Positions 17,316 to 29,529 are shown, counted from the stretch's first letter. The stretch: 64,000 nucleotides of DNA from Flavobacteriales bacterium (GCA_002701365.1 NZUK01000009.1:42503-106502); one strand, 5' to 3'. Program-made: numbers and translations. The notes: generated by a model not told the origin, from the sequence alone.

Positions 17316-18090
17316 TTTGTATTTCTTTTAATTTTTCATAAATAGACTCTATTTCCTGAGCATAATTCCCCGAAGGAAAAGCTAACAAAAAATTATTACA
17401 TGCAAATATAGCATCTTTTATTCTTTGAGCTTTCTTTTCTTCTACACTATTAACTCCTAATTCATAATAAGATTGTGTTTGAATAAAAAACACATCTTCT
17501 TTATTTAATGTCTCTGGAAAACGATTTAAAAAATCATCAACAGAGGTAATCGAAGCCATATACTTTCCTGTGTCAAAGTATAGTTTTACAATTTCAAACT
17601 CTTTTTTTTCAAGTTTTAAATTTAAATTAATAATAAGTTGTGTTGCATCTTTTATTCTACTACTATTAGGATAACTATCAATGAACGCTTCTAGTTTGAT
17701 TATTGCATCGTATGTATTAGTTTGATCTAAATTATATCTGGGAGCTTGTAGATAGTAGCAGTATGCAGACATATAGGACATTTCTTCTTTTTTAGATGAG
17801 GAAGGAAATTTTAAGGCAAAATTATTAAAATGATATGCCGCAGAAACATAATCTTTGATATAAAAAGTGGCATATATATAATGGTAATAAACTTCTTCTG
17901 ATTTTTGACGATCATTAAAATTAGTCAAAACAGTTTCTAACAATTGTAAAGATTTTAGGTAATCTGCAGTATTATAATATTCTAGCGCCTTAGTATATTT
18001 ATACTCTATATTGTCACTTTTTAAAACTTTTTGATACTCACTACAAGAAAAAAAGAAAAAAATAGATGATATTATGCAAAAAAACCTCAT
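17305..18090 (-). CDS. bamD: Outer membrane protein assembly factor BamD (TPR lipoprotein)
   Basis: TPR-like repeats. I prefer the ATG at 18090 (MRFFCIISSIFFFFSC lipobox) to the track start at 18171. The longer form would cover the promoter box of the divergent gene. Confidence 0.75.
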   Translation of the reverse strand: MRFFCIISSIFFFFSCSEYQKVLKSDNIEYKYTKALEYYNTADYLKSLQLLETVLTNFNDRQKSEEVYYHYIYATFYIKDYVSAAYHFNNFALKFPSSSKKEEMSYMSAYCYYLQAPRYNLDQTNTYDAIIKLEAFIDSYPNSSRIKDATQLIINLNLKLEKKEFEIVKLYFDTGKYMASITSVDDFLNRFPETLNKEDVFFIQTQSYYELGVNSVEEKKAQRIKDAIFACNNFLLAFPSGNYAQEIESIYEKLKEIQNGL

Positions 18091-18152
18091 GAGAGCAAAT
18101 ATAATATAATTAGCTAATACTATTATTAATAACTTAATTATTATTAAAATCG

Positions 18153-18160
18153 TATTTTTG
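18153..18160 (+). promoter_or_regulatory. Candidate -7 box (TAnnTTTG) for the alpha-oxoamine synthase gene
   Basis: Exact match tatttttg 22 nt upstream of the ATG at 18183. Confidence 0.3.
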
Positions 18161-18182
18161 CGATAATTCAATAAAGTTTCTT

Positions 18183-19424
18183 ATGGATTTATTTGAAAAA
18201 ATTAAAAAAAATCGAGGTCCTCTAGGCCAACATGCTAAAGATGCGCATGGCTACTTTACATTTCCAAAACTTGAAGGAGAAATTGCAAGTAAAATGATTT
18301 TCAATAATAAAGAAGTAATTTGCTGGAGCATTAATAATTATCTTGGATTATCAAATCATCCTGAAGTTCGTAAAGCAGATGCCGATGCTGCTAAAAAATT
18401 CGGTCTTGGTACACCAATGGGTTCTCGAATGATGTCTGGTGATTCATTATTTCATGAGCAACTAGAAAAAGAATTAGCTGAGTTCTCTCAAAAAGAAGAT
18501 GCAATATTATTAAATTTTGGTTATCAAGGCATGCACTCTGCGATTGACGCACTCGTTGATAGACAAGATGTAATTGTATATGACTCTGAATCACACGCAT
18601 GCATTTTGGACGGTGTAAGACTACATTTAGGAAAAAGATACCAATATCCCCATAATAATATTGAGAAGCTAAAAAAGCAACTAGAAAGAGCCACTAACAT
18701 CATAAATGAGACAGGTGGATCAATCCTTGTTATTACTGAAGGAGTGTTTGGCATGGCGGGAGACTTAGGAAAATTAAAAGAAATATGTGCGCTTAAACAA
18801 GAATTTTCTTTTAGATTATTTGTTGATGACGCACACGGTGTTGGAACAATGGGACATAACGGTATTGGAACAGGAGAACACTTTGGCGTTCAAGATCAGA
18901 TAGATGTATATTTCGGAACATTTGCAAAAAGCTTTGCTAGTATTGGTGCATTTATTAGCTCTAATAAAGATGTTATTGAATATCTTAAGTATAATACCCG
19001 TTCTCAAATTTTTGCAAAATCACTACCGATGCCAATTGTTGTAGGTGCATTAAAAAGACTAGAAATAATTAGAAGAGATAATAGCTTGAAGAAAAAGCTG
19101 TGGGCTATCACTGATCAACTTCAAAATGGCTTGAGAGAAAATGGATTTAATTTAGGTGACACTCAAAGTTGTGTCACACCAGTATTTTTATCAGGTGGAG
19201 TTGGTGAAGCAACTAATTTAACTGTGGACTTAAGAGAAAATTATGGTATCTTTTGCTCAATAGTGACGTATCCTGTTGTACCAAAAGGAGTAATAATGTT
19301 AAGATTAATTCCAACTGCGACACATACTAATGATGATGTAAAAGTTACAATAAATGCTTTCAAAGAAGTGAAAGAAAAATTGTTTTCTGGGACATATGTA
19401 TCAGATAAGATAGCGCAATTTTAA
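18183..19424 (+). CDS. PLP-dependent alpha-oxoamine synthase family enzyme (KBL / AONS / serine-palmitoyltransferase-like acyltransferase)
   Basis: 413 aa. Motifs include WSINNYLGLSNHPEV, the FVDDAHGVG aspartate/histidine region, and the PLP-lysine context GTFAKSFAS. Substrate cannot be assigned from sequence alone. Confidence 0.85.
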   Translation: MDLFEKIKKNRGPLGQHAKDAHGYFTFPKLEGEIASKMIFNNKEVICWSINNYLGLSNHPEVRKADADAAKKFGLGTPMGSRMMSGDSLFHEQLEKELAEFSQKEDAILLNFGYQGMHSAIDALVDRQDVIVYDSESHACILDGVRLHLGKRYQYPHNNIEKLKKQLERATNIINETGGSILVITEGVFGMAGDLGKLKEICALKQEFSFRLFVDDAHGVGTMGHNGIGTGEHFGVQDQIDVYFGTFAKSFASIGAFISSNKDVIEYLKYNTRSQIFAKSLPMPIVVGALKRLEIIRRDNSLKKKLWAITDQLQNGLRENGFNLGDTQSCVTPVFLSGGVGEATNLTVDLRENYGIFCSIVTYPVVPKGVIMLRLIPTATHTNDDVKVTINAFKEVKEKLFSGTYVSDKIAQF

Positions 19425-20365
19425 AATCTATATTTTTTAATAAATGTTTGGTCACTAAAGATCTGAACACTAAAGCCAGCATGTGAGCTAGATTTAATTT
19501 CTCTGCCATATAAATCGAACTCTTTTATTAAAGATTTTTTCTGTTCATGATCACTTAAATCAGTAGAAAAACAAGAAGATAAGTTAGAGTCAATATCCCA
19601 CGCATCAAATATGACGCTCTCAAGAGACGCAAAACCATTAGTAGTATAAGTACTTGTAAAAGGAGGGTCATTAGACATAACTACTGTTGAATAGTCTGAA
19701 TAAATCGTAGTGAGGCCATTAATACATAAGGCAAAATAATAGGATTCGCCCTCCATGAAACCATCTATCTCAGAAGTTGTTGAATCATCCCCCCACGCAG
19801 CAAGACCAATATTAGCCGAACTGTTCCACTGAGTATAACCAAAAAAGTTATTAGGATTAGAATCAGAAATTACACCAATCCACATTGGACAATCTATTTC
19901 AGTAAGTGGAATTGTTGCAGTTGGAGTTTGAATTACTATATTTTCAAAATTCGATTCTTGAATAGCTATAGTAGCATTACTAGCTGTAAACACTAAATCC
20001 CATTCACAGGGGGGTTGAACAATTATTGTTCCTGTCATGCCATTTATCGCATGACTTCCAACAGAACAATCATAATTATATGTTCCAGGGATCATGAATT
20101 CATGAGTATAAATCACTGCACCTACGGTACTAATTGGTGAAGAATTGAACGATTCAGGGTTATTAAAAGAGACATTATTTACAGAGTTAATATCACCGTT
20201 AACATCGTGCAAACCTCCGTCATTTATCCATTGTACTATATCACCGGCGTTTATAGTAAGTTGGCTAGGGTTGTAGTAATAAGAACCTGCGTTTATAGTG
20301 TGAGTAGTTTGAGAGATTGTTATACTAAAGATATACAGCAATAAGTAAAGTGTGTTTTTTTTCAT
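19421..20365 (-). CDS. T9SS-secreted type-1 copper (cupredoxin / plastocyanin-like) protein with an unknown middle domain
   Basis: 314 aa with a signal peptide. The cupredoxin domain has ligand pattern His (GGLHDVNG) ... Cys-x4-His-x4-Met (YDCSVGSHAINGMTGTIIV). The C-terminus LIKEFDLYGREIKSSSHAGFSVQIFSDQTFIKKYRF resembles a type A T9SS sorting domain. Confidence 0.75.
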   Translation of the reverse strand: MKKNTLYLLLYIFSITISQTTHTINAGSYYYNPSQLTINAGDIVQWINDGGLHDVNGDINSVNNVSFNNPESFNSSPISTVGAVIYTHEFMIPGTYNYDCSVGSHAINGMTGTIIVQPPCEWDLVFTASNATIAIQESNFENIVIQTPTATIPLTEIDCPMWIGVISDSNPNNFFGYTQWNSSANIGLAAWGDDSTTSEIDGFMEGESYYFALCINGLTTIYSDYSTVVMSNDPPFTSTYTTNGFASLESVIFDAWDIDSNLSSCFSTDLSDHEQKKSLIKEFDLYGREIKSSSHAGFSVQIFSDQTFIKKYRF

Positions 20366-20371
20366 TTTAAT

Positions 20372-23300
20372 TTATTCTATAACAAGTTGCTTGACAAATA
20401 ATTGGTCATTTATCATAATATTGACAAAGTAAACACCACTGCCATACGTACTTATATCAATTTCTTTATATAAGTCTTTCATGTAGTCATTCTCTTTCAT
20501 CAAAGATTGACCAAGAACATTATTTATCGAAATTGAGACGTCGGAATTATTATTCAATTCAAGCTTCAAAGCAACCTGGTAAGATGCAGGATTTGGATAC
20601 ATAGCAATAGAAATTCCGTCATAATTAACCACATTTATACCTTGACATGATTCAGTGTCATTAATCATAATAACATTTTCATAATCTTGATTAACAACAT
20701 CAATTATAGATTCAATACAAGTATTTGACTCTATAGATGAGTAATAAATTCTACATAATGGAGCTGGCTCATAATTCTTCATAATTAGTGAATCCTGATA
20801 AGAAATACCCAAAACCATTCCTGCTGGATTAAAATTAATATCAACCTGATAATCAGAAACTAAATTTTCAATAGATGAAATTGAAATATTTCCCATTATA
20901 AATTGATAACCTAAAACTTCATTATTTGGGTTTAAAATATGAATGTCAACGTAGCCATCTTCTAAGTTAAGCTCTCCAATGCTAAAAGTAACAGTATCAT
21001 TTGGATTAGTAATTTCCAATCCAAACTCACATGGTTCTGACTGATTATCTCTTGTAATTTCTTCTGAATTTTCTATACAATTAACAAGTAATGCAACATC
21101 GGTAACAGTTATATTACCATCCATATCTAAATCGTTGCAAGAATTGGCATCTATATCTTCTGCAACAATATTTAAAGAATATTCTTCAAGATCATATATA
21201 TCCAAAGAAGTATCTAAATTTAAATCTCCAGGCATTGATTCGCCTCCACAAATACCGTTACAATCATACTGAGCATTTCCAAATTCGACCCCAAAACAAT
21301 CAGTATACACAGGGCAATCAGATAAACCATACGCTAGGTTGTCCACATCATTTAATAATCCATCACCATCAATATCATCATCAGAACTATTCATAATACC
21401 ATCACCATCCACATCAGGATCATTTATATTAGAAATACCATCACTATCAATATCTATAGCCATATAATAACCTTTAGTTCCATCATCATTTGTAAATACT
21501 CCAATACATGTTTGTTCCCAATTATTTTCATAACTAAGCTCTATGTTTCCTAAAGCATCTGGATCTTGATCCCAATTAGTCCTAACCACAAAAGTATATT
21601 CACCATCAGGCACATTAGTAATATCAATCCACTGACACGAAAGACCAGATCCATAGATATCACCACAACCAGCTGAAATACCCATTATACTACATCCATA
21701 TGTATAATTTCCGGCAGGAACTCCTAATTCTTCATCACCACTACACTCTAAATCCATAACACAAAAACCATTTTTAAACCCAACAGGAAGAATTTGACCA
21801 TCAGAATCAAATAAAACATATTCAGCATATCCTTTGTAATGCCAGTGATTATGACATTCATCCCACTCAAATTGACTAGTTTCTTCATTATCCGAAACAG
21901 AACCAATAAAATAATCTAAATTACCTACGTTTTTAATCCAAGTATCGAATCTAATGATGGACCTATCTCCGTAACCAGTAAGACAACCTTCTTCAATTGC
22001 ACAACCATCTTCGTTACTATAGTTTTGTAAATACATACTATTTTCAAAAGGCATAACAAGAAGATCAGGACCATTTACACAATCAGGATTTCCTGGGTAA
22101 ATACATGAATTATCATCTATCTCTGCAATAGGATTAAAATTACATGCAGATGGATCTATACATCCTGAAACGGGACCTACATAGTTTAACTCCCAATCAA
22201 TATTATTGCAGTCGGCTTTGATTCTAATATAATAAGTTTCACCAGCTGACATTAATGGGAATACCTGAGATTGAACTCCACATAGATCATCGTTATAATA
22301 TATTGTAGCATCATTTGCCTCTGTTGGCAAAAGACCAGTGCAATAATCATATACATATATTATTGTATTGCAATTAGATGAACATGTATTGATATCATAT
22401 TGACCATTAGATTCGGGAGTAAATACATACCAATAATCACTTGTCTCTGTTACATAATTTCCAACGCCTATTTCAATAGCAGTATTACAATCATAACCAG
22501 GTGGACAGTTCATCGTTATAGAACTATTATAATTGAAATTTGGGTTTTCTAAAACAAGATTATCTTGATAAAAAACCTGAGCACCTCCACTAGAAAAAAG
22601 CCCATCGCCATAACTATCATATAAATTAAAAACATAACATCCATCGATTGGTAAACAGTATTGAAAAGGATAAGCAGTGTAAGAATCCTGAAAAACCTCA
22701 TTTTCTGTAGCCCATAATACTCCTTGATTATCATTAATAGTAAACGAGGTTTCATATGGATATGGATCTGTATTAATCAATACATCTATTTGAATTTCAT
22801 CTTCCGAACATTCTAAAGAATATAAGCAAGATCCATCATCAAAAGTAGCTTCAGGGTTAAAGTTAATAACTTCTGAATCAGTACAACCATATAGATCTAA
22901 TTCATCACAAATTCCATTTGCATTTAAATCATTTATACAATTTCCTATGCAATCATAGTATTGAGGAGGATATAAACAATTAGATTCATATTGAGCAGTA
23001 CCATCATAATTACAAGCTGCTTCATCCATACAACCATACAAATCACAATTTTCTGAACCAATAAATATATCTTCTACCTGACCATAACCGCCCGGAGCAG
23101 TTTCATTGTTATTAGCAAGTATTACTCCCCCATCGCACATACTTAACTCATACAAGCCACCATCGTTCCAGCCATCACCATAAGAATCATACGAATTAAA
23201 AGTATATGTATTTTCAAAATCTAAACAAACATAAGTTGTATAAATTTGATAATCTGAATAATATGAATTTAGAGGCGGGCTATTTGCCACCAATTGAGTT

Positions 23301-24034
23301 GTAAGAGAATCAGATGTGTTCAGAATTTCCCATGTTATTTCGCTTGACCAAGAACCAATTATTATGTCAATCATAATTAACTGTTGATCATCATTACAAT
23401 CACTTGGATACTCACATGATTCAGGATCTGAAATATCATTATCTTCACTAAAATTTAAAGCAGCAATATCCATACATCCAGTAGTATATTGGCAAGATTC
23501 ATCATCAAGCAAACAATAATCACAATAATTTTCAGCAGAAGGATCTGTACAACCTTGTATATTACAGTAAAGAGTTAATACAAAATCGCCCTCATAACTT
23601 CCATAGCCACTTACATATATATAATAGTCATAATTTGAACTAGCGTAAAATGAGACTTCAGAATGTAAATAGCTACTTTCATCCTCTTCACACACATATC
23701 CATCATCGTTACCTGTAACGCACGAAATATTAAATCCATCATCTTGAAAAACATGCAGTTTAGTGTCAAAAGAAGATCCACACATACGAAGCACGTAATC
23801 AGCATCATCACCCTCGATATAATACCAAACACCTGCGGAATCGTCAACAGATGTTCCGCAATCATTCACACCCCATTCTGTTAATTGAGTTTGATCTGAA
23901 TTGGCACCAATGGTAGTTGAAGATACCGGAGATTCACAGTTAATTAATAATGCATTTGTTATTTCATCGTTGTTTTGTGCAAAAACACACGAAAATGAGA
24001 AAAAAAATATAGTTAGAAAATAATTTAAATTCAT
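20372..24034 (-). CDS. Large T9SS type A cargo protein containing a lysyl-oxidase-like copper amine oxidase domain, thrombospondin type-3 repeats and a dockerin-like module
   Basis: 1220 aa with signal peptide MNLNYFLTIFFFSFSCVFAQ. The LOX block is FEWDECHNHWHYKGYAEYVLFD...GFKNGFCVMDLEC...GCGDIYGSGLSCQWIDITNVPDGEY. TSP3-like: DIDSDGISNINDPDVDGDGIMNSSDDDIDGDGLLNDVDN. Dockerin-like: GDLNLDTSLDIYDL...DLDMDGNITVTDVALLVNCI. The C-terminus MYPNPASYQVALKL...GVYFVNIMINDQLFVKQLVIE is a type A sorting domain. Confidence 0.88.
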   Translation of the reverse strand: MNLNYFLTIFFFSFSCVFAQNNDEITNALLINCESPVSSTTIGANSDQTQLTEWGVNDCGTSVDDSAGVWYYIEGDDADYVLRMCGSSFDTKLHVFQDDGFNISCVTGNDDGYVCEEDESSYLHSEVSFYASSNYDYYIYVSGYGSYEGDFVLTLYCNIQGCTDPSAENYCDYCLLDDESCQYTTGCMDIAALNFSEDNDISDPESCEYPSDCNDDQQLIMIDIIIGSWSSEITWEILNTSDSLTTQLVANSPPLNSYYSDYQIYTTYVCLDFENTYTFNSYDSYGDGWNDGGLYELSMCDGGVILANNNETAPGGYGQVEDIFIGSENCDLYGCMDEAACNYDGTAQYESNCLYPPQYYDCIGNCINDLNANGICDELDLYGCTDSEVINFNPEATFDDGSCLYSLECSEDEIQIDVLINTDPYPYETSFTINDNQGVLWATENEVFQDSYTAYPFQYCLPIDGCYVFNLYDSYGDGLFSSGGAQVFYQDNLVLENPNFNYNSSITMNCPPGYDCNTAIEIGVGNYVTETSDYWYVFTPESNGQYDINTCSSNCNTIIYVYDYCTGLLPTEANDATIYYNDDLCGVQSQVFPLMSAGETYYIRIKADCNNIDWELNYVGPVSGCIDPSACNFNPIAEIDDNSCIYPGNPDCVNGPDLLVMPFENSMYLQNYSNEDGCAIEEGCLTGYGDRSIIRFDTWIKNVGNLDYFIGSVSDNEETSQFEWDECHNHWHYKGYAEYVLFDSDGQILPVGFKNGFCVMDLECSGDEELGVPAGNYTYGCSIMGISAGCGDIYGSGLSCQWIDITNVPDGEYTFVVRTNWDQDPDALGNIELSYENNWEQTCIGVFTNDDGTKGYYMAIDIDSDGISNINDPDVDGDGIMNSSDDDIDGDGLLNDVDNLAYGLSDCPVYTDCFGVEFGNAQYDCNGICGGESMPGDLNLDTSLDIYDLEEYSLNIVAEDIDANSCNDLDMDGNITVTDVALLVNCIENSEEITRDNQSEPCEFGLEITNPNDTVTFSIGELNLEDGYVDIHILNPNNEVLGYQFIMGNISISSIENLVSDYQVDINFNPAGMVLGISYQDSLIMKNYEPAPLCRIYYSSIESNTCIESIIDVVNQDYENVIMINDTESCQGINVVNYDGISIAMYPNPASYQVALKLELNNNSDVSISINNVLGQSLMKENDYMKDLYKEIDISTYGSGVYFVNIMINDQLFVKQLVIE
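21510..22085 (-). other. Lysyl-oxidase (LOX) catalytic-domain-coding segment within the 1220-aa gene
   Basis: Boundaries are approximate. They run from PDCVNGPDLLVMPFEN (near 22085) to LSYENNWEQTC (near 21515). The His-x-His-x-His codons lie at about 21845-21865. Confidence 0.75.
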
Positions 24035-24165
24035 AAATTTTACGTCAATTAAAAATTAGTATAGTTATATAAATATAATCATATAATGTGATATAATTTT
24101 ATTTGAAATTGGTTTTTAAAAAACACAAAACAAAAAAATATAAAATAGGATTGCATAATTTTTAA

Positions 24166-24173
24166 TAAATTTG
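24166..24173 (+). promoter_or_regulatory. Candidate -7 box (TAnnTTTG)
   Basis: Exact match taaatttg 23 nt upstream of the ATG at 24197. Confidence 0.3.
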
Positions 24174-24196
24174 AAAAAAATGATCAATATTTAAAT

Positions 24197-24700
24197 ATGC
24201 TAAACAGAAGAAATATCTTAATAATTAGTTTTATATTATTAGGTGTTATTACACGTATTATTCCACACCCTCCTAATTTTACTGCGCTAGGTGCTATTGC
24301 GATTTTTGGAGGAGCATTTTTAAAAGATAAAAAACTAGCTATCACAATTCCAATGTGTATTATGTTGATGTCTGACTTAATGTTAGGCTACAGTTTAGTC
24401 CCGTCTGTTTACATAAGTTTTGTAATCATGGTTTTTTTAGGATCTTATTTAAAAGAAAAACAAACTGGATTAAGAATTATCAATATTGCTTTTTTAGGTA
24501 GTTTACTATTTTTTTTAATTACAAATTTTAATGTTTTTCTATTTTCATCTTTATATCCCAAAAATATAATTGGATTAATTGAATGTTACACACTAGCAAT
24601 CCCATTTTTCACCAACACGTTGCTATCAAATATCACATATTCTTTAATTATGTTTTATGGATTTAATGTAATTCATAATAAAATTGCAACTACAACATAG
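24197..24700 (+). CDS. Small polytopic membrane protein, DUF6580-like putative transporter component
   Basis: 167 aa with about 5 TM segments. RIIPHPPNFTALGAIAIFGGAFL ... LFFLITNF ... AIPFFTNTLLSNITYSLIMFYGF resembles the DUF6580 pattern as I recall it. Confidence 0.55.
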   Translation: MLNRRNILIISFILLGVITRIIPHPPNFTALGAIAIFGGAFLKDKKLAITIPMCIMLMSDLMLGYSLVPSVYISFVIMVFLGSYLKEKQTGLRIINIAFLGSLLFFLITNFNVFLFSSLYPKNIIGLIECYTLAIPFFTNTLLSNITYSLIMFYGFNVIHNKIATTT

Positions 24701-24701
24701 C

Positions 24702-25820
24702 ATGAAACAAATCATTATTTTAGGTGGCGGAAGAGTCGGTAGTGCAATGGCGCATGACTTATCTAAGAATTACTCTGTCACTGTAGTCGATATTAATAAA
24801 ATTTTACTACAAAAACTAAAGAAAAAAAATCAACGTCTACAAATTATTACTCAAAACCTATCAGATTTAGAAAAAATACAAAAACTAATCAAACCATATG
24901 ATGTAGTTGTATGCGCTGTACCAGGCTTTATGGGCTTTCAAACTTTAAAAACTATTATACAAGCAAAAAAGCACGTTGTTGACATATCCTTTTTTCCAGA
25001 AAATGCGCTTGAATTAAATGATTTAGCAATTAAAAATAAAGTAACTGCATTGGTAGATTTTGGCGTAGCTCCTGGCTTAGGCAATATCTTATTTGGACAT
25101 TACGATCAAACTATGGATATTGATAGCTATGAATGCTATGTTGGTGGACTACCTAAAAAAAAAGAATTACCATTTGAGTATAAAGCGCCTTTCTCTCCTA
25201 TTGATGTAATTGAAGAATACATTAGACCAGCTAGAATATTTGCAAATAGTAAAATAGTTACTAAAGAAGCACTAACTGAATTAGAAACAATATCCTTTGA
25301 TCAAACAGGCGACTTAGAAGCATTTAACACCGATGGACTGAGAAGTTTATTATACACAATGTCTCATGTGCCAAACATGATAGAAAAAACTCTAAGATAC
25401 CCTGGACATGTGCAAAAAATACAATTACTTAAAGACATAGGGTTCTTTGATCAAAAAATAAGAACAGTGAATAATCAAAACTACACACCTCTTGAAATAA
25501 CTGCTGATATTTTAAAAGAAAAATGGTTTTTAAAAGATAAAGAACAAGAGTTTACTGTGATGCGAATAATAATGAACGATAAAAATAAAAAAGTTCAGAT
25601 TGACCTATATGACGAATACGATCATTCCACTGACACTACATCTATGGCAAGAACTACAGGATACACATGTACAGCTGGAGTTAATCTAGTGATCAATAAT
25701 TTATTTACGGATTATGGCATATTTCCTCCTGAAATTATTGGTCAAAAACATGAGTGCTATAATTTCATTATTCAATATCTAGAAGAACGCAACATTATTT
25801 TAGAAACAAAGACTAATTAA
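24702..25820 (+). CDS. Saccharopine dehydrogenase family oxidoreductase (lysine 6-dehydrogenase-like)
   Basis: I prefer the start at ATG 24702 (MKQIIILGGGRVGSAMAHDL Rossmann motif), 1 nt after the upstream stop. Motifs VDFGVAPGLGN and YVGGLP...PFEYKAPFSP...LEAFNTDGLRSL are typical of the family. Confidence 0.8.
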   Translation: MKQIIILGGGRVGSAMAHDLSKNYSVTVVDINKILLQKLKKKNQRLQIITQNLSDLEKIQKLIKPYDVVVCAVPGFMGFQTLKTIIQAKKHVVDISFFPENALELNDLAIKNKVTALVDFGVAPGLGNILFGHYDQTMDIDSYECYVGGLPKKKELPFEYKAPFSPIDVIEEYIRPARIFANSKIVTKEALTELETISFDQTGDLEAFNTDGLRSLLYTMSHVPNMIEKTLRYPGHVQKIQLLKDIGFFDQKIRTVNNQNYTPLEITADILKEKWFLKDKEQEFTVMRIIMNDKNKKVQIDLYDEYDHSTDTTSMARTTGYTCTAGVNLVINNLFTDYGIFPPEIIGQKHECYNFIIQYLEERNIILETKTN

Positions 25821-26135: not shown

Positions 26136-28190
26136 TTGAAAACACATAAAATACTCATATACTCTCTTACGATGTTATTCTTTTTATCATGCAATAACAT
26201 AAACAGCGAAAAACAAGATAAATTTCAGTATCTAACTGAACAATTTGCGGATTTAAAAATGATTAGGTACAAAGTGCCAGGGTTTGAAAATCTTGAATTA
26301 AGGCAAAAGAAATTAATTTATTTTTTATCACAAGCATCTTTGAGTGGTCGAGATATAATATTTGACCAAAATTACAGACACAATTTAAGAGTTCGAAGAA
26401 CATTGGAAACTATAGTTTCCAATTATCCAGGAGATAGAGAAACTGAAGAATTTAATTATTTTATGGAATATACAAAAAGAGTATGGTTCTCAGGGGGAAT
26501 TCACCACCACTATGCATCTAAAAAAATGGAACCAAAATTTTCATCTGAGTATTTTATTAATGAATTAATTAATGAAACTAACTCATCCCAAGACTATGCC
26601 TTTCCTTTATTAGAAGGCGAAGACAAAATGGATCTTGCGAGAGATTTAGATGATATTATTTTTAATTCCAAAAAAGATTCTAAGAGAGTTAATAGAGACG
26701 CTGGCATAGATATAATACTTAATTCTGCAAATAATTACTACGCTCCTAACATTACTGAAAATGATGTTAACACATTTTATCAAAGAGGGATTGAAGATAG
26801 GGCTCCAGAATATGGTTTGAATTCTAAACTTAATAAAGATAATGAAGGCAATATTTATGAACAAACCTACAAAATAGGTGGCATGTATAGTGATGCTTTA
26901 CAAGAAATGATTTATTGGATTGAAAAAGCGAAAGATGTAGCAGAGAATGAGGAACAAAAAAAATCTTTTGAATTACTAATCGAATACTATACAACTGGAG
27001 ATATAAAAAAATGGGATCAGTACTGTGTGCAATGGGTTAAAACACAAACAGATATAGACTGGATTAATGGTTTTGTAGAAGTATATGGAGATGCTGCAGG
27101 AAGAAAAGGTGCTTATGAGTCAATTGTACAGATTAAAGACATGGAAGCCTCAAAAACAACAGAAGTGATTAATGAATACGTACAGTGGTTTGAAGACAAC
27201 TCTAGTATTATGAATGAACACAAAAAAGAAAATGTGGTTGGAGTAAGTTATAAAGTTGTTACTGTCGCTATGGAATCAGGTGACGCATCACCTTCTTCAC
27301 CAATTGGAGTAAATTTGCCGAACAATAATTGGATTCGGACAGAACAGGGCTCCAAATCTGTAAGTCTGGGAAATTTAATTGCAGCATATAGTGGAGCCGC
27401 TACCGGATCAGGTTTCTTAAATGAATTTTGTTATTCACAGGAAGAAATTGATCGTGCACAAAAATATGGAGAGACTGCTGATAAACTGGGAACACTATTA
27501 CATGAGGTTGTTGGTCATGCTTCAGGAAAAATAAATGAAGGAGTTGGAACACCAAAAGAAACATTAAAAAACTATAAATCAACATTAGAAGAAGCTAGAG
27601 CTGACTTGGTTGCATTATATTATATTATGAATGATAAACTGGTAGAGATTGGATTAATGGAATCTCTAGAATGCGGTAAAGCAGAATATGAATCCTACAT
27701 CCGGAATGGATTAATGCTTCAATTGAGGAGGATTGAAGTAGGGCAAAATATTGAGCAAGACCATATGAGAAACAGACAACTTGTCTCATCCTGGGCTTAT
27801 AAAAAAGGACTATCTGATAATGTCATTGAAAAAAAGACTAAAAATGAAAAAACATTCTTTGTTGTTAATGATTACAAAAAATTGCAAAATATTTTTGGTC
27901 AGTTATTACGAGAAATCCAACGTATTACATCTGAAGGAGATTTTGAAGCAGGACAAGCTTTAGTTGAAGATTATGGTGTACAGGTTGATTTAGACATACA
28001 CAAAGAGGTATTAGAAAGATCTAAGCAATTTAATAGTGCACCATATGGAGGTTTTATTAACCCAAAGTACACTTTAATAACAAATAGCAATGGAGAAATT
28101 AATGATGTAAAAATTAATTACCCTGACGATTTTACAACGCAGATGATGGAATATGCTAAAACATATTCATTCCTGCCCCATGTTAATTAA
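26136..28190 (+). CDS. Peptidase family M49 (dipeptidyl-peptidase III-like) lipoprotein
   Basis: 684 aa. The zinc motifs HEVVGH and EEARAD correspond to the M49 HExxGH / EExRA(E/D) pair. The N-terminus LTMLFFLSCNN is a lipobox. The track start is TTG at 26136, and an in-frame ATG (MLFFLSC) lies 36 nt downstream. Confidence 0.8.
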   Translation: MKTHKILIYSLTMLFFLSCNNINSEKQDKFQYLTEQFADLKMIRYKVPGFENLELRQKKLIYFLSQASLSGRDIIFDQNYRHNLRVRRTLETIVSNYPGDRETEEFNYFMEYTKRVWFSGGIHHHYASKKMEPKFSSEYFINELINETNSSQDYAFPLLEGEDKMDLARDLDDIIFNSKKDSKRVNRDAGIDIILNSANNYYAPNITENDVNTFYQRGIEDRAPEYGLNSKLNKDNEGNIYEQTYKIGGMYSDALQEMIYWIEKAKDVAENEEQKKSFELLIEYYTTGDIKKWDQYCVQWVKTQTDIDWINGFVEVYGDAAGRKGAYESIVQIKDMEASKTTEVINEYVQWFEDNSSIMNEHKKENVVGVSYKVVTVAMESGDASPSSPIGVNLPNNNWIRTEQGSKSVSLGNLIAAYSGAATGSGFLNEFCYSQEEIDRAQKYGETADKLGTLLHEVVGHASGKINEGVGTPKETLKNYKSTLEEARADLVALYYIMNDKLVEIGLMESLECGKAEYESYIRNGLMLQLRRIEVGQNIEQDHMRNRQLVSSWAYKKGLSDNVIEKKTKNEKTFFVVNDYKKLQNIFGQLLREIQRITSEGDFEAGQALVEDYGVQVDLDIHKEVLERSKQFNSAPYGGFINPKYTLITNSNGEINDVKINYPDDFTTQMMEYAKTYSFLPHVN

Positions 28191-29440
28191 CTTTTAATAA
28201 ATTCTATGCCCTCTTTTTCTAAATTTTTTAAAATTGGTTGATAAATTTCTTCATATATAGGTATTCGAACACCTTTTAGAGAAATTTTATCTTCAAGAAT
28301 CAACTTACAAGCAAAAAAAACAGGCAGCCCAACAGTTTTAGCCATACCGGTTTGAATGCTATCATCACCTTGAACGACCATTGATAAATTCATTTTTTTA
28401 TAATTACTATTTATTTCATAACCAAATTGATGCTGCATAACAATCATATCTTTATCATCAGGCTCTAGTGCCCACTTGTCTTTTAAAACAGATAACAAAT
28501 ACTCAGATGGACTATTATAATTAGAAATCTGGCTATTGAATAAGTTTAAATACTCCATTTTAAGATTTAATTCTTTATTACTTAAACCTTTTAGATATTT
28601 TAAAAATTTATCCTTAGAAACAATTTTTGTATTTTTTTCAGATGTCATTCCTAGTTGAACAAATATATTCCAAGCTTGTGAAAATCCTTTTTTTCGCAAT
28701 GTTCCTCTTACAATAGTATCAGCATTTAATAAATTATATTTAGATTGATAGTGTAAGGAATCTCTATTGGCATAAGATTCAAATTCTCCAAAGTGAGGAA
28801 TTCTAACCTTTTCAATATGAGTAAAAACTTCTTTATAGCTTAATTTCTTAATTAACCCATTTTTTAAATAAGTAGCACCCGAAGATCCAGCTAAAATAAC
28901 ATTCTTAGGATTCCATGTAAATTTATAACCCCAAGGGTTATTGTCATATTCTGGAGCTATTAATCCCCCACAGAACGACTTAAAAGTCTTAATTTCAGCA
29001 CCTTCTTTCTTTAATTTGTCGATAACTTCCATAGCAGAAAGATGATCGATACCTGGATCAAGTCCTATTTCGTTTAAAATTAAAATATTAGCTTTTTTGG
29101 CTTCATTATCTAATTGTTGAATTTCATTTGAAACATAAGAGGCGGTAATTAAATTTTTTTTAAAAAAAATACAATCTTTTGCTACCAAAAAGTGAAACTG
29201 AGGAGGTAGCATAGATATTACTAAATCTGATTGAGATATTATATCTCTACGATTTTGATCATTGTTAACATCTAATGAAACAAACGAACAAAGATTCTGG
29301 TCAATAAAAGGAACAATAAAATCATTTTTTTTTTGATCCGCAATAAATATTTGAATATTGAGTTCATTTTGATACTCTACTAAATACTTAATAAGTGTGT
29401 GTGTAGATCTTCCTACACCTAATAATAATACTCTTTTCAT
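28187..29440 (-). CDS. Saccharopine dehydrogenase (NADP+, L-glutamate-forming; LYS9-type saccharopine reductase)
   Basis: GLDPGIDHLSAMEVIDKLKKEGAEIKTFKSFCGGLIAPEYDNNPWGYKFTWNPKNVILAG is colinear with the LYS9 signature region. I prefer the ATG at 29440 (MKRVLLLGVGRS) over the TTG at 29473. Confidence 0.85.
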   Translation of the reverse strand: MKRVLLLGVGRSTHTLIKYLVEYQNELNIQIFIADQKKNDFIVPFIDQNLCSFVSLDVNNDQNRRDIISQSDLVISMLPPQFHFLVAKDCIFFKKNLITASYVSNEIQQLDNEAKKANILILNEIGLDPGIDHLSAMEVIDKLKKEGAEIKTFKSFCGGLIAPEYDNNPWGYKFTWNPKNVILAGSSGATYLKNGLIKKLSYKEVFTHIEKVRIPHFGEFESYANRDSLHYQSKYNLLNADTIVRGTLRKKGFSQAWNIFVQLGMTSEKNTKIVSKDKFLKYLKGLSNKELNLKMEYLNLFNSQISNYNSPSEYLLSVLKDKWALEPDDKDMIVMQHQFGYEINSNYKKMNLSMVVQGDDSIQTGMAKTVGLPVFFACKLILEDKISLKGVRIPIYEEIYQPILKNLEKEGIEFIKS

Positions 29441-29529
29441 AATTTTTAAAAAAATAATAATTTTATTTGACAACTAAATGAAATAATTACATAAATTAGT
29501 TAGATGTTAATTTTTAAATCTTAATCAAG

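What the first reader, a model, noticed from the sequence alone, without database searches (positions are those of the whole stretch)
19421..24034. Two-gene secreted copper unit: LOX-domain protein followed 6 nt later by a T9SS cupredoxin
The 1220-aa LOX-containing gene ends at 20372. The next gene on the same strand starts at 20365, leaving a 6-nt spacer with no terminator visible, so co-transcription is likely. The second gene encodes a type-1 copper protein with ligands His (GGLHDVNG) and Cys-x4-His-x4-Met (DCSVGSHAINGM). It also has an uncharacterised ~150-aa middle domain and its own T9SS sorting tail. Both products therefore need copper and are both exported to the cell surface or medium by the same pathway. 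A blue-copper partner for a LOX-type quinone oxidase is not part of the animal paradigm. It could act as an extracellular electron acceptor or as a copper donor or buffer. I regard this pair as the best candidate in the window for an undescribed functional system.
Basis: inference. Interest (0 to 1): 0.65.

Follow-up and report, generated by a model that had tools for sequence, protein, structure and literature searches.

The report
Lysyl-oxidase gene pair; cupredoxin recently fused
A marine Flavobacteriales genome really does carry a secreted lysyl-oxidase-type gene followed 6 bases later by a blue-copper gene, but relatives show that the conserved neighbour is a small beta-sandwich protein and that the copper domain was spliced onto it only in this one species, so there is no sign of a conserved lysyl oxidase–blue copper system.

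Summary
The two minus-strand genes exist as described: 20372-24034 (1220 aa) and 19421-20365 (314 aa), with a 6-nt spacer. The first has a lysyl oxidase (LOX) domain with the three copper histidines and the quinone-cofactor (LTQ) Lys and Tyr conserved, plus a type-A T9SS tail. The second has a cupredoxin domain with all four type-1 copper ligands. Its claimed T9SS tail is not detected.

The LOX–cupredoxin adjacency is not conserved:
- None of 80 related LOX loci from other species has a cupredoxin within ±10 kb.
- In every close relative examined, the gene after LOX encodes a 218-241-aa protein equal to residues ~117-314 of the window protein, with no cupredoxin.
- Only the window's cluster, out of 56 clusters of that family, carries the cupredoxin.
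- Against the nearest relative (~91% DNA identity), 365 nt (spacer, signal peptide, cupredoxin) replace 85 nt.

The "uncharacterised middle domain" is a beta-sandwich repeat with no Pfam model. It also occurs in many copies in giant T9SS/SprB-type surface proteins. The same cupredoxin module is fused elsewhere to fasciclin domains, T9SS tails and proteases, none of them near LOX.

Verdict: this is a narrowly conserved pair of LOX plus a small accessory protein, with a one-species domain shuffle. Functional copper coupling is possible but unsupported. Interest is low to moderate.

The parts
20372..24034 (-). Gene 1: a 1220-aa secreted multi-domain protein. In order it has a hydrophobic N-terminal signal, Cys-rich repeats, two 'DSYGDG' domains, the LOX domain, Asp-rich Ca-type repeats, a dockerin-like segment, an unassigned beta-rich region and a type-A T9SS tail.
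   Evidence: ORF and translation. Pfam and NCBIfam hits. Only sub-threshold hits for GBD_T9SS_assoc, Dockerin_1 and TSP_3. Identical protein MAQ31408.1, 'Flavobacteriales bacterium'.
21512..22042 (-). Lysyl oxidase catalytic domain (aa 665-841). The copper His triad CHNHWH is at 21839-21856. The LTQ lysine in FKNGFC is at 21761-21778. The LTQ tyrosine in GDIYGS is at 21647-21664.
   Evidence: Pfam PF01186, E 9.5e-25. Alignment to human LOXL2 (5ZE3), E 5e-20, with the residues lined up against WHDCHRHYH, GHKASFC and WDMYRH. Coordinates. Residue roles as given in PMC4448552.
20378..20602 (-). Type-A T9SS C-terminal sorting domain of gene 1 (aa 1145-1219).
   Evidence: PF18962 at 50.2 bits (cut-off 27) and TIGR04183 at 41.4 bits (cut-off 23).
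20366..20371 (-). The 6-nt spacer between the stop codon of gene 1 and the ATG of gene 2.
   Evidence: Sequence. Relatives have spacers of 3-13 nt or an 11-nt overlap.
19421..20365 (-). Gene 2: a 314-aa chimeric secreted protein made of a signal peptide, a cupredoxin domain, a beta-sandwich module and a short C-terminal tail.
   Evidence: Identical to MAQ31407.1 / CMD26_01550.
20004..20368 (-). Lineage-specific cassette of 365 nt (spacer, signal peptide and cupredoxin domain). It replaces 85 nt (spacer plus native signal peptide) found in the nearest relative.
   Evidence: blastn of window against L088: 25499-20369 aligns at 91.5% and 20003-17001 at 89.6%, with the segment between them unaligned. 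The relatives' small proteins start with their own signal peptide directly before the C-x-W...NATIAIQ motif.
20015..20302 (-). Type-1 copper (cupredoxin) domain, aa 22-117. The ligands are His53 (within 20195-20218) and Cys100, His105 and Met110 (within 20036-20071).
   Evidence: PF00127 at 32.2 bits. Alignment to plastocyanins 1M9W, 1J5C and 1PCS. Below the equivalog cut-offs for plastocyanin, amicyanin, pseudoazurin and rusticyanin.
19532..20014 (-). Beta-sandwich module (aa 118-278). This is the part that is conserved next to LOX in relatives. It has no Pfam model and bears the conserved motif AWGDDxTTxExDGF.
   Evidence: Family alignments. AF2 model with mean pLDDT 87.6, almost entirely beta-strand. 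No PDB match below E 0.04, TM <= 0.26. The same module is repeated in giant proteins.
19424..19531 (-). Short C-terminal tail (aa 279-314, VDxYGRxI...IxSDxTxxKxYxF), modelled as three beta strands. It is shared with the cupredoxin-fasciclin proteins. It is not a recognisable T9SS sorting domain.
   Evidence: No PF18962 or TIGR04183 hit.

Best explanation
The locus is a probably co-transcribed two-gene unit in a low-GC (29%) marine Flavobacteriales genome.

Gene 1 encodes a Sec- and T9SS-exported multi-domain surface or extracellular protein. Its LOX domain has everything known to be needed for copper- and quinone (LTQ)-dependent oxidation of primary amines or peptidyl-lysine by O2, giving aldehyde, NH3 and H2O2. 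The catalytic residues are shown; the activity is inferred.

Gene 2's conserved core is a small secreted single-copy beta-sandwich module with a short beta tail. The same module builds giant T9SS/SprB-type surface proteins. I therefore infer that it is a structural or binding accessory of the LOX protein rather than a redox or copper-handling factor. It is dispensable for LOX as such, because the sister clade keeps the LOX gene in the same position without it.

On the terminal branch leading to this species, recombination replaced the accessory protein's signal peptide with the signal peptide plus cupredoxin domain of a very abundant, promiscuously shuffled family of secreted cupredoxin modules in marine Flavobacteriales. 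The LOX–cupredoxin juxtaposition is thus a recent, species-restricted domain shuffle and not a conserved 'secreted copper system'. Whether the tethered cupredoxin now interacts with LOX is open.
For: Anatomy and catalytic and ligand residues.

Non-conservation of the cupredoxin:
- A scan of one genome per species with a LOX-domain alignment found at least 539 relatives, and the best 80 loci were fetched.
- tblastn and a cupredoxin HMM built from the cupredoxin hits (E<=1) find no cupredoxin in any of these loci.

Conserved partner:
- In L007, L008, L009, L010 and L016, a 218-241-aa homologue of aa 117-314 follows LOX directly, in full synteny.
- The same holds for P0003, P0179, P0188 and L096.
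- The partner family has 56 clusters among 5.8 billion proteins. All are about 200-250 aa except three divergent members (125-343 aa) and the window's own 314-aa protein, and only the window's cluster has PF00127.

Clean 365-nt for 85-nt replacement within ~90% identical flanks.

Phylogeny: LOX genes with a partner form a clade that is sister to the partner-less L011-L014, and the window is sister to the cupredoxin-less L088.

Promiscuity of the cupredoxin module:
- The nearest relatives (72-78% identity over aa 1-116, signal peptide included) are cupredoxin-fasciclin-tail proteins. Others are cupredoxin plus T9SS tail, double cupredoxins, or cupredoxin inside an M43 protease protein.
- Their genes are not next to LOX.

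Nature of the module: it recurs up to 12 times in proteins of up to 6410 aa that carry Por_Secre_tail, SprB, PKD or Ig-like domains.

Selection: the core of the small gene is under purifying selection, dN/dS 0.23.
Against: - The fusion keeps a signal peptide and all four copper ligands. It is the only version recovered for this species, in at least six assemblies. It may therefore be adaptive, and fusion to a conserved LOX neighbour is itself a weak 'Rosetta-stone' hint of a functional link.
- Only 80 of at least 539 related loci, and only this Bacteroidota LOX subfamily, were inspected.
- No expression, localisation or activity data exist.
- The role of the beta-sandwich partner is inferred only from where else the module occurs.
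- The recovered copies of gene 2 are DNA-identical, so selection on the cupredoxin part cannot be measured.
Confidence: 0.7

Rival explanations
1. The cupredoxin is a dedicated redox or copper partner of the LOX enzyme. It would either accept electrons from the reduced quinone cofactor, as amicyanin does for methylamine dehydrogenase, or buffer or donate copper, with both proteins on the cell surface.
For: - Tight co-oriented gene pair.
- Intact type-1 copper site and intact LOX site.
- The cupredoxin is fused precisely to the protein that is conserved next to LOX.
- Precedent from established knowledge: the TTQ-dependent methylamine and aromatic amine dehydrogenases use amicyanin and azurin.
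Against: - No conservation: 0 of 80 loci, 0 of 9 close relatives and 1 of 56 partner clusters.
- None of the listed LOX homologues has PF00127, and none of the listed cupredoxin homologues has PF01186.
- LOX-family enzymes are oxidases that use O2 directly, and the archaeal homologue releases H2O2 without any partner.
- Type-1 copper sites bind copper tightly and are not known as copper donors (established knowledge).
- No T9SS tail is detected on gene 2, so co-localisation is unproven.
Confidence: 0.12
2. The small beta-sandwich protein, and by extension the giant surface proteins built from the same module, is the substrate of the LOX enzyme. LOX would oxidise its lysines to cross-link or tether surface proteins, giving a bacterial counterpart of matrix cross-linking. 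The cupredoxin would simply be carried along as cargo.
For: - Conserved adjacency of LOX and the module protein across a clade.
- The module is a building block of giant T9SS adhesin-like proteins.
- A nearly invariant Lys lies near the C-terminus of the family (K194 of the alignment).
- Animal LOX acts on structural proteins (PMC4448552).
Against: - Purely inferential.
- The sister clade keeps LOX without the partner.
- No giant module protein was found in the window or in the 80 LOX loci.
- The one characterised prokaryotic LOX has relaxed specificity towards many small amines.
Confidence: 0.1
3. The chimera is a selectively neutral or transient by-product of recombination at a hypervariable slot downstream of LOX. 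The cupredoxin would have no role specific to this locus.
For: - The slot varies between empty, partner, and partner plus cupredoxin.
- The small gene has dS 0.76 against 0.22-0.41 in the flanking genes in the comparison with L088, which suggests allele replacement by recombination.
- The population recovered is essentially clonal.
Against: - The reading frame, signal peptide and ligands are all intact.
- The variant is found in several oceanic samples.
- In a streamlined 29%-GC genome, useless DNA is expected to be lost quickly (inference).
Confidence: 0.15

Closest known systems
Animal lysyl oxidases (LOX/LOXL; structure of human LOXL2, PDB 5ZE3)
   Same: Homologous catalytic domain (E 5e-20). 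The three copper histidines and the LTQ Lys and Tyr are conserved. The protein is secreted.
   Different: It sits in a 1220-aa bacterial T9SS cargo protein with unrelated accessory domains. There are no SRCR domains or propeptide. The first 'talon' histidine is absent, as in other bacterial LOX (PMC4448552). The substrate is unknown.
Prokaryotic LOX homologues (bacterial LOX surveyed in Grau-Bové et al. 2015; Haloterrigena turkmenica HTU-LOX, Pestov et al. 2019)
   Same: Bacteroidetes were already listed as carrying LOX genes. HTU-LOX shows that a prokaryotic LOX domain is an active, copper-dependent, BAPN-sensitive amine oxidase that releases H2O2.
   Different: Those papers describe no T9SS architecture and no conserved neighbour. 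Here, at least 539 Bacteroidota loci were seen, most of the fetched ones encoding 770-1230-aa proteins.
Methylamine dehydrogenase–amicyanin (TTQ quinoprotein plus cupredoxin electron acceptor; my own knowledge, not tested here)
   Same: A protein-derived quinone amine-oxidising enzyme encoded next to a cupredoxin gene.
   Different: There the linkage is conserved and the complex is periplasmic, feeding a cytochrome chain. Here the linkage exists in one species only. The enzyme is an O2-using oxidase fold unrelated to MADH. The cupredoxin scores far below the amicyanin model (16.2 against 110.2 bits).
Secreted cupredoxin fusion proteins of marine Flavobacteriales (cupredoxin-fasciclin-short tail; cupredoxin-T9SS tail)
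   Same: The signal peptide plus cupredoxin module is 65-78% identical, and the cupredoxin-fasciclin proteins carry a similar short C-terminal tail. Gene 2 looks like a cupredoxin-fasciclin-tail protein with the fasciclin swapped for the LOX-associated module.
   Different: Those genes are solitary or lie next to MerR/B12-binding regulators or protease genes, never next to LOX.
Repeat modules of giant T9SS/SprB-type surface proteins in Bacteroidota
   Same: The middle domain of gene 2 matches a module present in 2,633 representative proteins. It occurs in up to 12 copies per protein, together with Por_Secre_tail, SprB, PKD and Ig-like domains.
   Different: Here it is a single copy in a small protein without a recognisable sorting domain. 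The module has no Pfam model and no convincing PDB fold match.

Membership tests
Lysyl oxidase family (Pfam PF01186) | Catalytic-domain match above the curated threshold | tested here: met
   87.9 bits against a cut-off of 20.4, aa 665-841. E 5e-20 to LOXL2 5ZE3.
Lysyl oxidase family (Pfam PF01186) | Three essential copper-binding histidines (C-H-x-H-x-H) | tested here: met
   CHNHWH aligns with CHRHYH of LOXL2. Requirement as stated in PMC4448552.
Lysyl oxidase family (Pfam PF01186) | Lys and Tyr that form the LTQ cofactor | tested here: met
   K in FKNGFC aligns with K in HKASFC. Y in GDIYGS aligns with Y in WDMYRH.
Lysyl oxidase family (Pfam PF01186) | Copper-dependent amine oxidase activity and LTQ formation | not testable with these tools
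   Requires biochemistry. Shown for the archaeal homologue HTU-LOX only.
T9SS type-A cargo (gene 1) | C-terminal sorting domain PF18962/TIGR04183 above threshold | tested here: met
   50.2 bits against 27, and 41.4 bits against 23.
T9SS type-A cargo (gene 1) | N-terminal Sec signal peptide | not testable with these tools
   No signal-peptide predictor was available. By eye, MNLNYFLTIFFFSFSCVFAQ is a typical hydrophobic leader.
T9SS cargo (gene 2) | Recognisable type-A or type-B C-terminal sorting domain | tested here: not met
   No PF18962, TIGR04183 or CHU_C hit at E<=10. hhalign to genuine tails gives 27% probability over 16 columns. The tail is ~36 aa and three strands, whereas the Pfam type-A tail model is 75 positions long.
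Cupredoxin / plastocyanin-azurin family (PF00127) | Domain match above threshold | tested here: met
   32.2 bits against 21.2, profile positions 5-99 of 99.
Cupredoxin / plastocyanin-azurin family (PF00127) | Type-1 copper ligands His, Cys, His, Met | tested here: met
   H53, C100, H105 and M110 align with the plastocyanin ligands in 1PCS and 1M9W, with a 2-residue longer Cys-His loop.
Named cupredoxin subfamilies (plastocyanin, amicyanin, pseudoazurin, rusticyanin, halocyanin) | Score above the NCBIfam equivalog cut-off | tested here: not met
   Plastocyanin 36.9 against 87.85, amicyanin 16.2 against 110.2, pseudoazurin 14.5 against 109.85, rusticyanin 20 against 146.7, halocyanin 26.6 against 93.8.
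Quinoprotein amine-oxidising enzyme plus cupredoxin redox pair (MADH–amicyanin type) | Genetic linkage of enzyme and cupredoxin conserved across species | tested here: not met
   0 of 80 LOX loci and 0 of 9 close relatives have it, and only 1 of 56 partner clusters carries a cupredoxin.
Quinoprotein amine-oxidising enzyme plus cupredoxin redox pair (MADH–amicyanin type) | Electron transfer from the reduced quinone cofactor to the copper protein | not testable with these tools
   Needs purified proteins and stopped-flow or anoxic assays.
Cohesin–dockerin type assembly (considered for LOX protein / partner binding) | Dockerin or cohesin domain above threshold | tested here: not met
   Dockerin_1 scores 15.9 bits against 22.9 (E 0.015) on aa ~968-992. 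No cohesin hit on gene 1 or gene 2. One homologue, P0138, has a precomputed PF00404 hit.

The most novel reading that the evidence does not exclude
The fusion is adaptive and reveals a real functional link. One version: the beta-sandwich partner docks on, or is cross-linked by, the surface LOX enzyme, and in this species it delivers a tethered type-1 copper centre that accepts electrons from the reduced LTQ cofactor, making an O2-sparing, H2O2-free 'dehydrogenase mode' of a lysyl oxidase. A second version: LOX plus the module protein is a bacterial surface-protein cross-linking system analogous to animal matrix cross-linking. Neither version is excluded, because no biochemical or expression evidence exists and the fusion is intact and fixed in the sampled population.
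Probability: 0.1. Interest if true: 0.7.

Novelty: new member of a known kind. Interest (0 to 1): 0.25.

Why it matters
The evidence instead shows a routine outcome of domain shuffling among secreted proteins of streamlined marine Flavobacteriales.

Three by-products are useful:
- T9SS-exported LOX-domain proteins are widespread in Bacteroidota (at least 539 species-level loci), and their function is still unknown.
- A narrow clade has a conserved small partner gene that nobody has described.
- That partner's domain defines a large, unmodelled repeat family of giant surface proteins.

These give concrete handles for asking what bacterial lysyl oxidases do, which the literature still calls enigmatic.

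Tried and rejected
- Sigma-70 promoter and terminator scan of 19000-24800. Counts equal chance (37 against 37.6 promoters; 2 against 2.0 terminators), and Bacteroidota promoters are not covered, so it is uninformative.
- Bacteroidota -7 motif TAnnTTTG. There are 115 matches against 123 expected by chance. None lies on the minus strand within 1.2 kb upstream of gene 2, and none in the LOX upstream spacer. Uninformative.
- Rfam on 18000-25500: nothing.
- The first attempt at a genome scan with a 17-sequence alignment failed for lack of conserved stretches. It was redone with 5 trimmed sequences.
- Is the middle domain a divergent fasciclin domain? This was suggested by 99%-coverage hits to cupredoxin-fasciclin proteins. 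Rejected: similarity is confined to the cupredoxin and the tail, the middle aligns poorly, and there is no PF02469 hit even at E<=10.
- Looking for synonymous variation to test selection on the cupredoxin. All recovered copies of gene 2 are DNA-identical.
- Search for a donor paralogue. No other cupredoxin or module gene is in the 64-kb window, and nothing above 78% identity exists in the 5.8-billion-protein collection.
- Literature: no paper links LOX with a cupredoxin partner or with the T9SS in a relevant way. A preprint on Cys-rich repeats was irrelevant.

Full report
**Observation**

The window holds two ORFs on the minus strand. One is 20372..24034 (1220 aa) and the other is 19421..20365 (314 aa), and 6 nt (20366-20371) separate them. 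The neighbours on both sides are on the other strand: a class-I/II aminotransferase at 18183..19424 that overlaps the stop of gene 2, and a DUF6580 gene from 24197. The pair therefore stands alone.

Pfam and NCBIfam place a lysyl oxidase (LOX) domain at aa 665-841 of the large protein (87.9 bits, cut-off 20.4). They also place a type-A T9SS sorting domain at aa 1145-1219. The small protein has a plastocyanin/azurin-type copper-binding domain at aa 22-117 (32.2 bits, cut-off 21.2).

Aligned to human LOXL2 (5ZE3, E 5e-20), the large protein keeps three features:
- the C-H-x-H-x-H copper triad;
- the Tyr of the LTQ cofactor.

According to Grau-Bové et al. (PMC4448552), these are the features that predict a catalytically competent LOX. 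Aligned to cyanobacterial plastocyanins, His53, Cys100, His105 and Met110 of the small protein sit on the four type-1 copper ligands.

The one element of the observation I could not confirm is the T9SS tail on the small protein. No model detects it, even at E<=10. A profile-profile comparison with genuine tails aligns only 16 columns at 27% probability.

Both proteins are identical to the hypothetical proteins MAQ31408.1 and MAQ31407.1 of a Tara Oceans 'Flavobacteriales bacterium' MAG. The same gene pair is found on contigs from six assemblies, so it is not an assembly chimera. The window is 29% G+C.

**Is the LOX–cupredoxin adjacency conserved?**

A scan of one genome per prokaryotic species with a trimmed LOX-domain alignment found at least 539 relatives. 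By record title most of the 80 fetched loci are Bacteroidota (Flavobacteriales, Saprospiraceae, Sphingobacteriales, Lewinella). These 80 best loci were fetched with up to 10 kb on each side.

Neither tblastn with the cupredoxin domain nor an HMM built from the cupredoxin hits (E<=1) finds a cupredoxin in any of them. Instead, the five closest species have a 218-241-aa gene 10-13 nt after the LOX stop codon, or overlapping it by 11 nt. These are L007, L008, L009, L010 and L016, with LOX domains 88-95% identical and complete synteny. The product of that gene is a signal peptide followed directly by a homologue of residues ~117-314 of the window protein.

A profile search of 5.8 billion proteins finds 56 clusters of this family. 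They are about 200-250 aa long, apart from three divergent members (125-343 aa) and the window's own 314-aa protein, and none has a Pfam domain. The window's own cluster is also the only one with PF00127.

Three members that I traced to contigs each lie directly after the syntenic LOX gene: P0003 (69% identity), P0179, and the divergent P0188 (32%). A fourth close relative, on a 1.74-Mb contig, has a ~665-nt small gene that is too short to hold a cupredoxin.

The next clade out (L011-L014) keeps the LOX gene in the same place but has no small gene at all. There the aminotransferase follows within 13 nt or overlaps. In a neighbour-joining tree of the LOX proteins, the partner-bearing genes form a clade sister to L011-L014. 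The window is sister to the cupredoxin-less L088.

**How the cupredoxin got there**

Window and L088 align at 91.5% DNA identity through the whole LOX gene (25499-20369). They align again at 89.6% from codon ~121 of gene 2 onward (20003-17001). Between these blocks, 365 nt in the window replace 85 nt in L088. The 365 nt comprise the spacer, the signal peptide and the cupredoxin. The 85 nt comprise the spacer and the native signal peptide. This is a clean cassette replacement on a terminal branch.

The cassette's nearest relatives are 72-78% identical over aa 1-116, signal peptide included. They are ~305-aa cupredoxin-fasciclin proteins that end in a short tail similar to that of the partner family.

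Hundreds of further relatives combine the same module with other elements:
- a type-A T9SS tail;
- a second cupredoxin;
- a place inside a 1186-aa M43-protease protein.

The genes of four such proteins have no LOX nearby. Two cupredoxin-fasciclin genes sit next to a MerR/B12-binding regulator. The module is therefore a promiscuous building block, and gene 2 is one more combination of it.

Between window and L088 the conserved part of the small gene has dN/dS 0.23, so it is under purifying selection. Its dS is 0.76, against 0.22-0.41 in the four flanking genes. This suggests the whole small-gene allele was exchanged by recombination at a variable slot.

**What the conserved partner is**

With 54 family members as the alignment, AlphaFold2 gives an almost entirely beta-strand model (mean pLDDT 87.6). 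It has a main sandwich and a three-stranded C-terminal tail. Foldseek finds nothing convincing in the PDB (best E 0.04, TM <= 0.26). The other fold libraries were unavailable.

An exhaustive HMMER search of 1.84 billion representative proteins shows that the sandwich (profile positions ~25-165) is a repeat module. It occurs in 2,633 proteins, in up to 12 copies in proteins of up to 6,410 aa. The sampled members carry Por_Secre_tail, SprB, PKD or HYDIN/ASH-type Ig domains. The module itself has no Pfam model.

The LOX neighbour is thus a single-copy version of a surface-protein or adhesin building block, with an acidic conserved loop (AWGDDxTTxExDGF). This points to a structural or binding accessory rather than a redox or metal-handling protein. 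That step is inference.

**How it most likely works**

- Shown: the gene anatomy, the intact LOX and type-1 copper sites, the T9SS tail on gene 1, the conserved LOX-plus-module pair in one clade, and the species-specific fusion.
- Inferred for LOX: the LOX protein is exported by Sec and the T9SS. It oxidises primary amines or peptidyl-lysine with O2, as the characterised archaeal homologue does with a broad range of amines.
- Inferred for the small protein: it is co-expressed and acts as an accessory. It is dispensable for LOX maturation, because the sister clade lacks it.
- Inferred for the cupredoxin: it is a recent passenger.

I put 0.7 on this reading.

Rivals:
- A true redox or copper partnership, 0.12. 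It is argued against by the lack of conservation, the O2-oxidase chemistry of the family, the tight copper binding of type-1 sites, and the unproven co-localisation.
- The partner as a LOX substrate for surface cross-linking, 0.10.
- A neutral recombination by-product, 0.15.

**Comparison with what is known, and novelty**

Bacterial LOX genes, including those in Bacteroidetes, were reported in 2015, and their function is called unknown. One archaeal enzyme is characterised. I found no paper linking LOX with a cupredoxin or, meaningfully, with the T9SS.

The defining conserved linkage of that system is tested here and not met, and the cupredoxin scores far below the amicyanin model.

The locus is therefore a new member of known kinds: a T9SS LOX-domain cargo protein and a shuffled cupredoxin fusion. 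It comes with a modestly interesting, narrowly conserved, undescribed accessory gene. Interest is 0.25. The most novel reading not excluded is an adaptive LOX–cupredoxin coupling or a LOX-based surface cross-linking system. I give that about 0.1 probability, and it would merit about 0.7 if true.

Noticed in passing
window 22097-23554 (minus strand; aa 161-183, 186-209, 334-355, 383-405, 624-646 of gene 1): There are five copies of a ~23-aa cysteine repeat, GC[TMI]D..A.N[YF]...DD.SC.Y, and two 'DSYGDG' domains (aa ~283 and ~473). Neither has a Pfam hit. The repeat just before the LOX domain is conserved in LOX homologues from other species.
   Followed up: partly
L095 6992-8927; L097 3936-8733: Cupredoxin-fasciclin genes of marine Flavobacteriales sit divergently next to a MerR_1 + B12-binding_2 regulator in two unrelated contigs. 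In L097 a photolyase/cryptochrome-type FAD_binding_7 gene lies downstream. This suggests a light-controlled regulon for these secreted blue-copper proteins.
   Followed up: no
window 19532-20014; proteins P0195-P0333: The middle domain of gene 2 defines a large repeat family with no Pfam model. It comprises 2,633 representative proteins (126 with E<=1e-30), with up to 12 copies per protein, in giant T9SS/SprB/PKD/Ig-domain proteins. The AF2 model is confident, but there is no PDB fold match.
   Followed up: partly
window 19421-20003 vs L088 5219-5804: Between the window and its nearest relative, the small gene has about twice the synonymous divergence of its neighbours (dS 0.76 against 0.22-0.41). 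Across clades the slot is empty, occupied, or occupied by the cupredoxin-carrying version. It looks like a recombination-prone variable slot between conserved housekeeping genes.
   Followed up: partly
L023, L025, L030, L039, L048, L051, L061, L074 (also L020, L024, L028, L031, L033, L053, L055, L073): Many Flavobacteriales carry two ~800-840-aa LOX paralogues about 7 kb apart. A ~775-aa gene recurs upstream; the one checked (L051) is a Peptidase_S46. Other loci have a ~1010-1090-aa protein immediately downstream; the two checked carry a CHU_C T9SS tail, L020 with CotH and lamin-tail domains and L028 with PKD domains. So there are other, different recurring LOX neighbourhoods.
   Followed up: partly
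L017, L028, L073, L082: LOX loci of clear Bacteroidota type sit in MAGs labelled Methanobacteriota archaeon, Comamonadaceae and Bifidobacteriaceae. This is probably mis-binning or mislabelling of contigs in the public records.
   Followed up: no
window 24684-25820 (+), 28187-29473 (-), 26136-28190 (+): Two saccharopine-dehydrogenase-family genes (PF03435/PF16653) and a Peptidase_M49 gene lie just upstream of the LOX unit. They are syntenic in all close relatives. A link with lysine or polyamine metabolism is conceivable, but it may simply be conserved housekeeping synteny.
   Followed up: no
L098 1364-5600: A cupredoxin-T9SS-tail gene (P0044) directly follows a 1186-aa protein that combines Peptidase_M43, GEVED and its own Copper-bind domain. 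This is another example of cupredoxin modules attached to large secreted enzymes.
   Followed up: no
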